A stretch of DNA of 64,000 bases, from the NCBI GenBank assembly GCA_964016885.1, contig OZ024747.1, forward strand, positions 55,242,001-55,306,000, in the 5' to 3' direction. Shown here piece by piece: positions 10,615-45,270 of the stretch; the first letter of the stretch is position 1; each line of letters begins with the position of its first letter. The DNA is from Eledone cirrhosa (Eukaryota). A program made the translations under genes and the position numbers. The notes below the pieces were generated by a model. The model had not been told where the DNA came from, did not search any database, and saw only the letters and a list, made by a program, of their open reading frames with translations.

Positions 10615-10901
10615 TATAAAGAAAAAGGGATGAAATCGAAAATGCAACTGAAGTCTTATTTTTTAAAAAAATATATATATTTATTTCGTTCCTTTACCGG
10701 TTTCGCAGTTCTTCTGCTTTTCAAAAGGTGAGTTGAGATGGAGGGTCTGTGGTTTTTCAAAAACCACAGACCCTCCATCTCAACTCACCTTTTGAAAAGC
10801 AGAAGAACTGCGAAACCGGTAAAGGAACGAAATAAATATATATATTTTTTTAAAAAATAAGACTTCAGTTGCATTTTCGATTTCATCCCTTTTTCTTTAT
10901 A
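10615..10901. repeat. Perfect 287-bp palindrome (143-bp arms, 1-nt centre at 10758) abutting (TA)n
   Basis: tataaagaaaaagggatg...gtggttttt C aaaaaccac...catccctttttctttata; no mismatch found by eye. Confidence 0.95.
10788..10825 (+). ncRNA. Minimal type I hammerhead ribozyme, U3-A8 core variant (mirror copy on - strand at 10691-10728)
   Basis: cctt-TTGAAAA-gcag-aagaa-ctgc-GAAA-c-cg-GTA^-aagg: stem I cctt/aagg, perfect stem II, palindromic stem III accggt, GUA cleavage triplet. Confidence 0.65.
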
Positions 10902-10935
10902 TATATATATATATATATATATATATATATATATA

Positions 10936-11132
10936 TAGGAAAACGTATGACCCCGACGGCAGAGCTCTAGCCGTTTCTTCGACGGGTATTTCTGTACTCA
11001 GAAATAGCCGTCGCTACGGCTTGAGCCCTGCCGTCGGGGTCATACGTTTTCCTATTTCCCACTCTACTACCCTAAGTTTTGAGTACTCTGGTGCGTTATG
11101 GTCCATCTGGTTCCTTGCCACATTTTCTTTGT
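10936..11132 (+). mobile_element. Fold-back + tail element, family A copy 1, inside (TA)n
   Basis: Hairpin taggaaaacgtatgaccccgacggcag...ctgccgtcggggtcatacgttttccta, then ~70-nt tail cccactctactaccctaag...ggttccttgccacat. Confidence 0.8.
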
Positions 11133-12105
11133 TATATATATATATATATATATATATATATATATATATATATATATATACTTTCATAGCATGTATTTAT
11201 TAGTCTATATATTACATTTTATCTATAAAAAAAAATATATAAAGTATCAATTGATGTGACAATAAGGCAAAGATACCAGAAATTTGCTTTTTTCGAAACA
11301 CAATAGAAAATATTTCATCCTTTTGAAGCAGCGGAATTGCAGCCCCTTTCTTCAAACAGCTGTTGGTACAATTGCCTATAGGAAACCACATTAATAACTT
11401 CATCTTAATAGGAGTTCAGTCTATTGAAGGGAAATTATTCCACTATACGAGACGTTACTTTAATTGTATGTATATTTATATATATATATATATATATATA
11501 CATTTATATATATATATATATATATATATATATATATATATATATATATATATATATATATATATATATATATATATATATACATTTATATATATATATA
11601 TATATATATATATATATACACATATATATATATATATATATATATATATATATATATATATATATATATATATATATATATACACACACACACATATATA
11701 TATATATATATATATGTTTGTGTGTGTATATATATATATTTATATGAAGATTTTTTCCGAATAGGAAGCAACTCTGTTTGGTTAGGTTTCACGTACGATT
11801 TTTTGGTCTTGAGAAATTTTGAATTGGATTTGATTGTAATACATATTCTCTCCGTATGCATGTCCCCTTCTTATAATAAACAACCAATAAACGAATTAAT
11901 TAGTTATATATATATATATATATATATATACATCTTCACGCAAACACAATCTTTCCTTCTCTTTTGTATACACACACACTCACAGATATATATATATATG
12001 TGTGTGTGGTGTGTGTATGTCTAGATGGGTGAATTTATATATATATATATATATATATATATATATATATATATATATATATATATATATATATATATAT
12101 ATATA

Positions 12106-12210
12106 ACGAAGGAAATGTGGTAAGGAAGCAGATGGACCATAACGCACCAAAGTACTCAATACTTAGGGTAGTAGAGTGGGTAATAGGAGCAAGTATGACC
12201 CCGACGGCAG
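12106..12210 (-). mobile_element. Family A copy 2 (tail plus part of one arm)
   Basis: Reverse complement of the family A tail, flanked by TA. Confidence 0.8.
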
Positions 12211-12217
12211 ATATATA

Positions 12218-41172: not shown

Positions 41173-42764
41173 CTTCCATTTCGGACTAAACTAAAGCTGG
41201 CACACTTTAAAGTTAACATCCTAGACAAATTAACCCTTTAGCAATGTATCCTCCTTCAAGATTCCACCAACCCCTAACAACTATATAATGCAGAACAAGC
41301 AAGCACATAGAATACCCAAATCAGCTCGCCCTGGAGGACTTCCACGAAGATAATCGAATAAATGGAAGCATTCCGGTGTCAAACCAAATGCTTTGCACCC
41401 CCCTGAATCTGGATGTTTCTGCTAAAGATAGAATGGGCATTCCAATGGCTCTGAACTCCCTTTCGTGACAAAATTTCAATATTCTTAGTAAGTACTTTCA
41501 GATAGTATACATGGAAGCTTTGTGTTAGGTTAGTGTTTCTTGCCTCCTATGGTCAAATTAAGAAATATTTATTGCACCTCAGCGAAAAGGCTGTGAGATT
41601 TACTGACAATATATATAGCATCTCAGAGAGATTGCTTCCTTTTGTAGCATTGTAAAAGTGAAAATGTAGTCCTTCCCTAAATTTAAATTTATGATAGACC
41701 AAGAAGAACATAAGCATTATGGTATCTGAGATTTAGCATGTCGAATGGTCTCTATCATCCAAGAGTGTGATTCAGCATTGAATGTGTTATTGTATCCAAC
41801 TAGGCTCTAACCAAGTTCTTCTTCTGCCACCGTAGCTATGACATCCAAATTTTGCCAAATAAGAGTTGCTCAGCACATACTTCTTTCTTCTCAGCTGTTT
41901 CCCTATTTGTGGTGATATTGTTATTGTCACGCACGTAGGTGCGTAGTATTTATGGTAGTGTTTATGAATGTATGTATTATGCACATGTGTAGACATACAT
42001 ATACATCCACATATATATATATATATATATATATATATATATATATATATGTATATATATATATATATAAATATATATACACATATATATATGCATCACA
42101 TATATATATGCATATATATATATATATATATATATATATATATATATATATATATATATATATATATATATATATATATATATATAACAATAGACAATGA
42201 AATAAACCACAATAATATATTCAAGGAATGCTCTTTGTAGATAAACGATCGTATATTTCTATAGAAAGTCTTGGATTCGTCTGCCTGTTTTATTATAAAT
42301 GTTCATTTCTTTTAAACAACAATATAACAACAACAACAACAACAACATCATCAACAACAACAACAACAATAATAATAATAATAATAATAATATTCACCAA
42401 AGCTCTACAAGAAAGTGTCTTTACAGCTGCCAACAAAATGACCGACTTCAAGTAAACTGACGTTGCTTAGTGATTATTATTATGATAGCGAGACCAGTTT
42501 TCTCTTAATTAATTCCTTACATTGCATCCTAAACAAAAATAAATAATTAACTACGTAAATAATATAAGCTGATATAAGAAGAAAAATACATCTGAAATGG
42601 AAACAGTAAGTTTTAACATGAAACAAAATGAAACCACCATCGTCATCAACATAGTTATCATAATGATATTATTTGTAGACATCATCGTTAACAATCATCA
42701 TCGACATCGTCACCAAAGTTACCGTCGTCATCGGTGTCATCATCCCCAACATCATCATTGTTAG

Positions 42765-42945
42765 TAGTATCGGTAGAGGGTCGGATGCCATGCTTTGACG
42801 CATAGAGTTACGGCCGTTGCCATTCTGGGTTCAAATCCCGCCGAGGTTAAACTTTGCCGCTCATCCTTACGGGGTCGATTCAATAAAGTACCAGTAATGT
42901 ACTGGGTATTTGCTGGCCTTGTGCCAAAAGTAGAAACAATTATTA
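42765..42945 (+). mobile_element. SINE
   Basis: gtatcggtagagggtcggatgccatgc..gggttcaaatcccgccgagg..agtagaaacaattatt. Confidence 0.9.
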
Positions 42946-44532
42946 TTGCCACAACCATCCTCATCATCTTCATTTATTTATATATATATGATTGGGCACC
43001 AGCTTTCTTCTTATTTTACCGCCTGTGTATGAGTATTTATGTTTGGCAAGCTTATGTGTATTTGTGTTCTGCATCCGTGTGTATGTGTAGAATGCTTGTT
43101 TCTCTATTTTTTGTGTCACTCTATGGTATTTCTCTTTCATGTGTATTATATTCCGTCCTCAGTCTGTAGGTTATGCAGTGGAGGTGTTACTAACCCATTA
43201 GTGGTTTCTGTTGAGGCTCGTTCTACTTTTTATTACATGTGTGACTTCCTTAATTTGTCTGAGAGTTGACTCAGGTCTATGTGTGTATAGGATCTTTATT
43301 TCTATGTCATTTATTGAACCCCTTGTTCTAGTTTGTCATGTTGGTACAGCACTGACGAGATTTTCTACTCGTTGATTTCTCGCCAATGTTCCTTTATGCT
43401 ATGATCCGCGATATCTCTATTATATATTTCGCCCTCTATCTGGACCGTCTACCTGTACACCTTATCCTATAAACAATATTATTTACACATTACCTACGGG
43501 TTTACATAACATTCTATACAGTTTCTGTTCGTACAGGTTTTCTTACAAAACAAATACATATTTGTGTGTGTGCGTGTGTGTGTGTGTTTGTGTGTGTCTG
43601 TGTGTGTGTGTGTGTGCGCGCGTATGTGTGTGTCTGTGTGTTTGTGTGGGTGTGTGTGTGTGCGTGCGTGCGTGTGGGTGTGTACAGGAACAAACAGACA
43701 CAGAGGCACATACAAACACACACTAACATAGTCGCCCACACACATGACTATGCAAGAGCAAGAAGGAGGGACTCATTCTACTGACATGGCTTTAAAAGCG
43801 AGGCTTGTTTGCATAATTGCAAACGAATCGAATAATATTATTGATATTCGAAAAACTCAGATTATATATATATATATATATATATATATATATATATATA
43901 TGCGTGTGTGTGTATAACATATATATACAGATATAACAAATATATACAGTGTGTGTGTGTGTCTGTGTGTGTGTCTGTATATATAACATATATACATATA
44001 GATAACATCTCCGTCTGACGACCGATTCAGACGTATATTGTTAGTGTCTGGGATCCAGATGCCTTTGGTAATGGAGTAGTTATATTTTGTCTTCTTTACT
44101 TTCTAATTAAATAGCTCTGTTCTATACATAGAGCACTCTTTTTCCCTTTGATTTTCCTTCAAATTACCTAACATATATATATACATAATTATTTGTCTCT
44201 CTTTCTGTTTGTCTGTCTGTTCCTATACATTCTTAAACGGCTCTACATGTAATAGGTGTGCGAGGATGTATGTCTCTGTGTGTCTGTGTTAGTATGTGTA
44301 TGAGAGAGTGTAGGTGTGTGTGAGTGTATGTGAGTGCGTATGTATGTGTGAGTGCATGTGTGTGTGAGTGTATGTGTGATAATTCTTATCTCAACCTTCT
44401 ACACATCTACACATACAGATACATATATGATGACAGACAAGTAATAGATTTGCGTGAATGGATATCTCTGTCTGTCTGTCTTAGTATATGTATGTGAGTG
44501 TATTTGAGAGTGTGTCAGTGTAGGTGTGATAA

Positions 44533-44718
44533 TTGGATTGGCAGTATCGGTAGAGGGTCGGACGCTATGCTTTGACGCACAGAGTTATGGCCCTTGCTAT
44601 TCTGAGTTCGAATAGCGCGGTGGTTAACTTTGCCTTTCATCCTTACGGAGTCGATAAAATAAAGTACCAGTAATGTACAGGTTAATTGCTGGCCTTGAGC
44701 CAAAAAGTAGAAACAATT
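44533..44718 (+). mobile_element. SINE
   Basis: tggattggcagtatcggtagagggtcggacgc..gagttcgaatagc..gtcgataaaataaagtaccag. Confidence 0.9.
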
Positions 44719-45201
44719 GTTTTCATTTGGATTAAAATAATAGAAAACAACACAACGACGTCACATTTTGTATATGAATAGGTATGTGTTTGTGAGTGCG
44801 TGTGTGCGCGTTCATTAGTTACGTTATTAAATATACACACACATCTACACATACATATACATATGTAGTGACTGAAAAAATATGAAGTGAAAAGTTATGC
44901 GTGTGTCTGCGTGAATGTATGCCTATGTTTCTCTTTCTTAGTATATGTATGAGAGTGTATGTAAGTACGTATGTGTGTGAGTGTGTAGCAACAATTTATT
45001 CATTTGGATACCAGCAAAGAATTACACAATTAATATTGTTTACCCTACGGTCCTTCAAGATAGATAGATTTTTTATTTCTAAATACTATTAGCATTACAT
45101 TTATGAAACATATCTTCATGTTTACCCACTCAATATGCAAATTGGGCTACTCAGCCGTTAATATGCATAAGGAAAGTATATACTTTCGGACGTTCAGCTA
45201 T

Positions 45202-45270
45202 CTGGCAGGAAGGTATACGTTGCTGACGATAGCTAACAAGCTTGAAACTAGTACAGCGTTCCTTTGTCAG
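45202..45270 (+). ncRNA. Minimal type I hammerhead ribozyme
   Basis: acgttg-CTGACGA-t-agct-aaca-agct-t-GAAA-c-ta-GTA^-cagcgt; stem I acgttg/cagcgt extended by ctggca..aagg/cctttgtcag; palindromic stem III actagt. Confidence 0.75.

What the first reader, a model, noticed from the sequence alone, without database searches (positions are those of the whole stretch)
10615..45270. Microsatellite-associated, hammerhead-bearing fold-back elements: candidate non-autonomous Penelope-like system
Seen: three sequence-unrelated loci (10615-10901, 12601-13927, 45202-45270) carry minimal hammerhead cores with a tiny palindromic stem III, and the first two are inverted repeats ending in (TA)n. Decayed cores occur near 1351, 10037-10072 (-), 19788 and 20300. 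Two GIY-YIG remnants (9534-9629, 40868-41172) are in the same window. Known: Penelope-like elements encode RT plus GIY-YIG, carry minimal hammerheads that can act as dimers in their pseudo-LTRs, often have inverted 5'-truncated pLTRs, and some families insert in microsatellites. Inference: these are many distinct non-autonomous Penelope-like families parasitising, and perhaps expanding, the (TA)n arrays. The density and diversity in 64 kb suggest a large, poorly annotated ribozyme complement.
Basis: partly seen in the sequence, partly recalled or inferred. Interest (0 to 1): 0.75.

Follow-up and report, generated by a model that had tools for sequence, protein, structure and literature searches.

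The report
Penelope retrotransposon ends in TA repeats
These repeats are the cut-off ends of two young protein-coding Penelope-type jumping genes plus one small non-coding repeat that likely borrows their enzymes, each with a predicted self-cutting RNA and sitting in TA repeats; this is a known kind of element, though the ends suggest that the enzyme likely copies its RNA from both broken ends of the target, starting at short TA stretches.

Summary
The three hammerhead cores are real (5 hits against 0.05 in shuffles), and their stems covary across families. The Penelope link holds, but 'non-autonomous' fails for two of the three loci. Locus A (10553-10901) is an inverted pair of 5'-truncated ends of a Neptune/Nematis-type RT-GIY-YIG element (10,850 exact core copies). 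Locus B (12601-13933) is the same for a Hydra-clade element. Full-length copies with stop-free RT-GIY-YIG frames run into these ends at 97% identity. Only locus C is non-coding: a 422-430 bp tandem retrozyme-like unit (1,859 exact cores); its partner was not found. All three families end at two fixed sites inside (TA)n. In 37 of 38 contiguous two-armed insertions one arm ends at each site (40 of 43 unfiltered). All six sites lie in 3-7 nt TA tracts of the element. That fits priming from both ends of a cut, possibly by pairing; this is inferred. Hammerheads, (TA)n targeting, tails and inverted arms are published PLE features, including in Octopus. This scan already noted a matching 422-nt family and the scrambled core seen at 19788/20300 elsewhere in this genome. 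No cleavage or RNA data. Verdict: new members of a known kind.

The parts
10553..10901 (.). Locus A: head-to-head pair of 5'-truncated 3' ends of a Neptune/Nematis-type RT-GIY-YIG PLE, between (TA)n arrays; junction at 10758/10759
   Evidence: 97% identity to pLTR and 3' end of full-length copy L151
10553..10614 (-). Tail of family A (= 5' leader of the element body), on the left arm only; ends in a 7-nt TA tract
10788..10825 (+). Type I minimal hammerhead, U3-A8 core, palindromic stem III (mirror copy 10691-10728 on -); cleavage untested
   Evidence: 10,850 exact core matches
12601..13933 (.). Locus B: 1049-nt arm with tail (-) joined to a 288-nt inverted arm (+); 3' end of a Hydra-clade PLE
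   Evidence: 97% identity over 1049 nt to L139
12601..12691 (-). Tail of family B (91 nt = 5' leader before the ORF), on the left arm only
13835..13881 (+). Type I hammerhead of family B (mirror core 12747-12787 on -); cleavage untested
45121..45460 (+). Locus C: 5'-truncated monomer of a 422-430 bp non-coding tandem unit, ending in (TA)n
45208..45266 (+). Type I hammerhead of family C with extended helix I; cleavage untested
40866..41171 (+). Broken GIY-YIG domain of a sister Neptune/Nematis-type family, whose other copies end in a different U3-A8 hammerhead
9516..9626 (-). Old GIY-YIG remnant, 40% identical to the endonuclease of the family at 9891-10179
9891..10179 (-).
12222..12562 (.). 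Further hammerhead fold-back (family D), both arms cut inside stem II; both arms carry the tail, an exception to the one-tail rule
19618..20363 (+). Partial tandem of a 512-bp non-coding unit; hammerhead blocks in site-GAAA-CUGAUGA order, stems I and III can form, stem II unresolved
1255..1465 (+). Old copy with a hammerhead decayed by a stem II deletion (core at 1351)

Best explanation
Loci A and B are 5'-truncated, inverted 3' ends of two young protein-coding Penelope-like elements (Neptune/Nematis-type and Hydra clade), and locus C is a copy of a non-coding tandem unit that is likely copied in trans by such elements. Shown: linkage to RT-GIY-YIG ORFs, variable 5' breakpoints, two fixed 3' termini per family inside (TA)n, one arm ending at each terminus, and short TA tracts at all six termini. 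Inferred: the endonuclease cuts both strands of a (TA)n array; reverse transcription starts at the two internal RNA sites that bound the tail, one from each broken DNA end, likely helped by 3-7 bp pairing of the target end with UA tracts in the RNA; and the two cDNAs stop early and are joined at their truncated ends, which gives the fold-back. The hammerheads are predicted to work in direct-repeat transcripts (full-length pLTR tandems, C arrays) through palindromic stem III dimers, while the fold-backs are likely dead end products.
For: ORF linkage: 10 of 10 A loci and 6 of 6 B loci fetched from ORF hits. L151 has pLTR, tail, a 400-aa ORF1, a TTTTTTA site and a 775-aa stop-free -1 frame with RVT_1 and GIY-YIG hits. 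L138 and L139 have a pLTR and 850/849-aa frames with the Hydra motifs. Youth: 40 of 40 scored A-ORF hits at 99% or more; 46 of 131 B-ORF matches at 91-100% amino-acid identity. 3' ends: A 64 of 67 and B 47 of 51 at two sites, the rest running into the element body; C 37 of 55 at two sites, 18 running into the next monomer. One arm per site: A 20 of 21, B 8 of 8, C 9 of 9. Among the first 100 A cores listed, 22 diverging pairs 80-4191 nt apart against 1 converging pair. TA tracts of 4 and 7, 7 and 3, 5 and 3 nt; background per site 0.02-0.25. Covariation: 11 of 16 and 6 of 10 pairs changed on both sides. In vitro two-site initiation and extension of both strands for an anole PLE (PMC11167929).
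Against: Without the contiguity filter the one-per-site count is 40 of 43: L052 (2+2, half covered), L142 (1+1, kept in the filtered set), L028 (1+1, 87% covered). The window's own family D fold-back is 2+2. PAc was reported to start at RNA sites not homologous to the cut DNA and saw no strand difference in start site. In one D subfamily the near site has a mismatch at the first base (by eye). The TA tracts are short and the elements AT-rich. No partner for C was found. Cleavage is untested, and published PLE minimal hammerheads cleave weakly or need protein; 8 of 9 frog retrozyme dimers did not cleave. The alignments for covariation were hand-picked, 10 rows each, from related families. Loci are top hits, not random copies.
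Confidence: 0.85

Rival explanations
1. One reading: all three are distinct non-autonomous Penelope-like families.
For: C has no ORF (longest stop-free frame 74 aa), and every copy that extends far enough runs into another monomer. Most A and B copies are short, and short non-coding derivatives could contribute some of them.
Against: A and B ends are 97% identical to, and contiguous with, ORF-bearing copies. Their 5' breakpoints vary from under 100 nt to kilobases.
Confidence: 0.1
2. The TA tracts at the termini play no part in priming: initiation is set by protein-RNA contacts alone, as reported for PAc, and the tracts are chance or relics of earlier targets. (This rival concerns one step only.)
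For: PMC11167929; tracts of only 3 nt at two sites have a background of 0.19-0.25; a mismatch in one D subfamily.
Against: All 6 sites have tracts, four of them with background 0.09 or less. By eye the E, F and H families show the same at sites that could be read.
Confidence: 0.45
3. Fold-backs arise by self-priming or template switching on one (possibly antisense) template rather than from two target-primed cDNAs.
For: Proposed for rotifer Penelopes with palindromic junctions (PMC3846280); locus A is a perfect palindrome at its junction.
Against: A copy-back of one cDNA gives no obvious reason why the second arm should stop at the other fixed site in 37 of 38 cases, whichever arm is longer.
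Confidence: 0.25
4. DNA-transposon MITEs or fold-back elements with chance hammerhead-like words.
For: Inverted arms; TA flanks resemble a TA target duplication.
Against: Arms are unequal, truncated at the centre and tailed on one side; they are linked to RT-GIY-YIG ORFs; the cores are invariant while stems covary.
Confidence: 0.01

Closest known systems
Hydra-clade PLEs, including Hydra-1_Obim of Octopus bimaculoides (Craig et al. 2021, PMC8557442; section 11, passages and supplement hits read)
   Same: C-terminal GIY-YIG, RW(K/R), DKT, CxCX5C, CxxC and CxH motifs, 3' hammerhead, (TA)n targets (family B)
   Different: A different family: other hammerhead sequence (compared by eye), about 2.4 kb 3' UTR and about 5 kb total against under 3 kb, clear pLTRs and a 91-nt tail
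Neptune/Nematis PLEs (features as given in PMC8557442)
   Same: DKG motif, CX4CXXC linker, CCHH endonuclease, pLTR hammerhead; an ORF1 with a frameshift is listed as optional for PLEs in that paper's Fig. 1 legend (family A)
   Different: Neptune against Nematis not settled (no tree with references); tail about 62-68 nt against the usual 30-40
PLE minimal hammerheads, including the U3-A8 core (Cervera and de la Pena 2014, PMC4209133; parts 1-2 of 4 read)
   Same: U3-A8 covariation, palindromic stem III, opposite-strand pairs 100-700 bp apart ascribed to truncated PLEs, thousands per genome
   Different: Higher count here (10,850 exact copies of one core); no cleavage data for these sequences
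Metazoan non-LTR retrozymes (PMC7229834, passages read; bioRxiv 10.64898/2026.07.22.740005, parts 1 and 3 of 5 read)
   Same: Non-coding tandem monomers of a few hundred bp with a type I hammerhead, a U-U mismatch at the base of stem II, proposed PLE dependence (family C)
   Different: Here dispersed, inverted, tailed insertions in (TA)n give direct PLE-type footprints; circular RNA not shown
PAc Poseidon element in vitro (Frangieh et al. 2024, PMC11167929; parts 1-2 of 4 read, supplements not seen)
   Same: Two internal start sites that bound the tail; both target strands cut and extended; predicted dimer
   Different: PAc start sites reported as not homologous to the target; here all six sites lie in TA tracts, and the two arms nearly always use different sites

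Membership tests
EN+ Penelope-like element (A, B) | ORF with RT and C-terminal GIY-YIG contiguous with the repeat end | tested here: met
   (A: RVT_1 E 5e-6, below Pfam cut-off, and GIY-YIG E 4e-6; B: no RVT_1 hit, GIY-YIG E 0.005 on L102, YRDD and the motifs read directly)
EN+ Penelope-like element (A, B) | pLTR formed by a partial tandem; inverted 5'-truncated copy; tail on one end | tested here: met
   L151, L149, L138, L139, L100
EN+ Penelope-like element (A, B) | Hammerhead in the pLTR | tested here: met
   (sequence and structure only)
EN+ Penelope-like element (A, B) | RT phylogeny within the PLE clade, sister to telomerases | not tested
   no tree with reference elements was built
Hydra clade (B) | RWK, DKT, CxCX5C linker, CxxC and CxH near the end, no CCHH | tested here: met
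   RWR, SDKT, CNCRRSSNC, CDLC, CQH in L139 against section 11
Hydra clade (B) | Generally short (<3 kb) | tested here: not met
   about 5 kb from tail to 3' end because of a 2.4-kb UTR; the paper gives this as a tendency, not a rule
Neptune/Nematis clades (A) | CX2-5CxxC linker, CCHH endonuclease, DKG | tested here: met
   CGRSNCGTC, C..CKGC..H..H, ADKG in L142 and L151
Neptune as distinct from Nematis (A) | Clade placement | not tested
   no reference tree
Non-LTR retrozyme (C) | Non-coding tandem monomers each with a type I hammerhead | tested here: met
   period 422-430, arrays on both strands; longest frame 74 aa
Non-LTR retrozyme (C) | Expressed, self-cleaving, circular RNA | not testable with these tools
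   no RNA run was available to lay
Non-autonomous family (A, B) | No coding copies; fixed short unit | tested here: not met
Type I hammerhead | Conserved core with covarying stems I and II | tested here: met
   C-like and A-like alignments; B not tested for covariation
Type I hammerhead | Site-specific self-cleavage | not testable with these tools
   bench test needed
Type-SGC hammerhead (19788, 20300) | Blocks in S-G-C order with stems I, II and III | tested here: inconclusive
   order, stem I (6 pairs) and stem III (4 pairs) met at 20300, 1 window hit against 0.01 in 200 shuffles; stem II not resolved (PMC10085705 passages)
MITE / TIR DNA transposon | Fixed equal terminal inverted repeats and fixed length | tested here: not met
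   target duplications cannot be read inside (TA)n

The most novel reading that the evidence does not exclude
(TA)n-targeting Penelope elements of two deep clades, and their retrozyme passengers, prime like a telomerase: each end of a double-strand cut in (TA)n anneals to a short UA tract at one of two fixed sites in the RNA, and a dimeric enzyme assigns one site to each end. This would explain the one-sided tail, the fold-back and the microsatellite bias together, and would differ from the homology-free initiation reported for PAc.
Probability: 0.4. Interest if true: 0.62.

Novelty: new member of a known kind. Interest (0 to 1): 0.38.

Why it matters
The finding itself is ordinary PLE biology in an unusually rich genome. 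It shows that short hammerhead fold-backs in (TA)n should be annotated as truncated ends of protein-coding PLEs before they are called non-autonomous families. Its value is as a test bed. How PLEs make inverted, one-tailed insertions and choose microsatellites is stated as open (PMC8557442). These young families give near-digital junction data (two termini, one per arm, TA tracts at both) and natural full-length copies for reconstitution.

Tried and rejected
Rfam scan: no hammerhead among the 150 matches shown; the list was swamped by hairpin and microsatellite hits. Folding z-scores of the three motifs were weak (-0.9 to -1.3) and are not used as support. Cofolding gave the stem III dimer clearly only for A. 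The GIY-YIG ORF 850 bp upstream of a C copy (L084) belongs to another element with its own hammerhead and TA end, so it is not a partner. A search of the C monomer against fetched loci found only C relatives and TA-rich matches; this was not a genome-wide partner search. The C rows were spoiled by a palindromic anchor; they were dropped and redone. PDB sequence search with the A protein: no match. Pfam D5_N hits on the B protein were treated as spurious. Sequence look-ups in earlier findings returned nothing. Expansion of (TA)n by insertion was not tested: no empty sites were at hand. MITE and chance-motif readings were rejected as above. The organism was not determined; earlier notes call the genome octopus-type.
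Full report
Observation. A descriptor scan found five type I hammerhead cores with short stem III in the window, at the three loci named (two mirror pairs and one single), against a mean of 0.05 in 60 block shuffles. The window lies on contig C7 of a 3.0-Gb genome. 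All three loci are repeats: exact core matches number 10,850 for A and 1,859 for C, with 0 for the reversed controls; B gave 1,451 first-look candidates, with the best copies at 98% identity. Both GIY-YIG remnants were confirmed by tblastn.

Locus A is the end of a protein-coding element. Extending copies upstream led through about 1 kb of UTR to a GIY-YIG domain. Ten loci picked from 40 ORF hits, all 99% identical or better, each carry the A core downstream on the same strand. L151 is complete: pLTR with hammerhead, tail, a 400-aa ORF1, a TTTTTTA site, a 775-aa stop-free frame in -1 register, UTR, hammerhead and (TA)n. A programmed frameshift there is inferred, and the 'slippery heptamer' label is recalled. 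Pfam gives RVT_1 and GIY-YIG. The linker CX4CXXC and the CCHH motif place it with Neptune/Nematis (PMC8557442, passages). The window arms are 97% identical to it.

Locus B is likewise a protein-coding element's end. L100, L102 and L103 join the window arm to an ORF, and 6 of 6 loci picked from protein hits do so too. L138 and L139 have a pLTR and 850/849-aa stop-free frames with the motifs that define the Hydra clade (section 11). The supplement of that paper lists Hydra-1_Obim from Octopus, in (TA)n and with a different hammerhead, so B is a new family of a described clade. 46 of 131 scored matches are 91-100% identical.

Locus C is non-coding. Its unit repeats every 422-430 bp, in direct and mirror-image arrays. 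Copies that extend far enough run into another monomer, and the longest frame is 74 aa. It fits the metazoan non-LTR retrozymes (PMC7229834 passages; bioRxiv 2026, parts 1 and 3). No partner was found among the fetched loci.

The motifs look selected. In a 10-row alignment of C, its older subfamilies and two other tandem families, 11 of 16 pairs change on both sides, 94% of cells pair, and slid controls pair 33-51%. In 10 rows from A and other U3-A8 families, including that of the 40866 remnant, 6 of 10 pairs change on both sides. Rows were hand-picked and related, so these are not probabilities. The U3-A8 core, palindromic stem III and opposite-strand pairs are published for PLEs (PMC4209133, parts 1-2). 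In a fold-back transcript the sense core is predicted to pair fully with the other arm, so these copies are likely inert. Dimers would come from direct repeats.

The ends carry the mechanism. Each family stops at two fixed sites: 68 nt apart in A (64 of 67 ends), about 95 in B (47 of 51) and 59 in C (37 of 55, the rest continuing). The stretch between the sites is the element's own 5' leader, that is, the PLE tail. In contiguous two-armed insertions one arm uses each site in 20 of 21 (A), 8 of 8 (B) and 9 of 9 (C). The filter dropped four A pairs (three 1+2, one 2+2) and one B pair (1+1), so the unfiltered count is 40 of 43. The window's family D fold-back is a further exception. The queries for these loci did not include the tail. 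A tail on one of the inverted pLTRs is already described (PMC3846280, passages), and two internal start sites with extension of both strands were shown in vitro for PAc (PMC11167929). The counts here make the rule quantitative and favour one cDNA from each broken end.

All six sites fall in alternating TA tracts of the element itself (4 and 7, 7 and 3, 5 and 3 nt; background 0.02-0.25 per site), which suggests pairing with the cut (TA)n. PAc was reported to start without homology. I found no statement of such pairing for EN+ PLEs in five searches and the parts read. The PAc supplements and the preprint's supplements were not seen, and most subscription papers are outside the library. This step is inference.

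The other cores. 1351 is decayed by deletion. The core at 10037 belongs to another ORF-bearing PLE and is non-canonical in all copies shown. 19788 and 20300 lie in a 512-bp non-coding tandem (2,514 candidates) with blocks in S-G-C order. Earlier notes of this scan gave me that reading; stems I and III check out and stem II does not resolve (PMC10085705 passages).

Verdict. The features are published, also for Octopus (31 recently active Penelope-like families in O. vulgaris, with no mention of ribozymes in the main text; PMC13282606 passages). New members of a known kind; interest 0.38, resting on the testable two-end, TA-tract priming model.

Noticed in passing
window 10938-11132, 12106-12210, 29376-29751, 33900-34127, 40102-40297: Another (TA)n-flanked family (H) with short fold-back arms and a one-sided tail of about 90 nt, at least five times in the window; longer copies (L030, L098, L140) extend upstream; no hammerhead or ORF link was established.
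   Followed up: partly
window 19618-20363: 512-bp non-coding tandem with scrambled (S-G-C) hammerhead blocks; a related family appears in L028, L029 and L079 with changes outside the paired columns.
   Followed up: partly
L151:1459-2660: 400-aa ORF1 overlapping the RT frame at a TTTTTTA site followed by a GC-richer stretch; candidate -1 frameshift signal, same in L149, L054 and L142.
   Followed up: partly
   Followed up: no
window 46908-55660: 69-bp tandem array, 127 copies at 97%, with a 2844-codon stop-free frame on the minus strand (47143-55674, Thr/Ile/Tyr/Asn-rich); satellite or repetitive exon not decided.
   Followed up: no
window 57007-63998: ORFs resembling a LINE with an apurinic-type endonuclease start (62268-63998) and an upstream ORF (60761-62269); label from recalled motifs.
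   Followed up: no
L036:6663-7598; L055: 467-bp and 310-bp tandem hammerhead families with the same stem II loop as family C; the first lies just upstream of the window.
   Followed up: partly
window 30041-30279: A further fold-back with a TA-rich centre; family not identified.
   Followed up: no
L039, L040, L114: RT fragments of yet another PLE type beside A insertions; PLE insertions often nest in each other's (TA)n ends.
   Followed up: no
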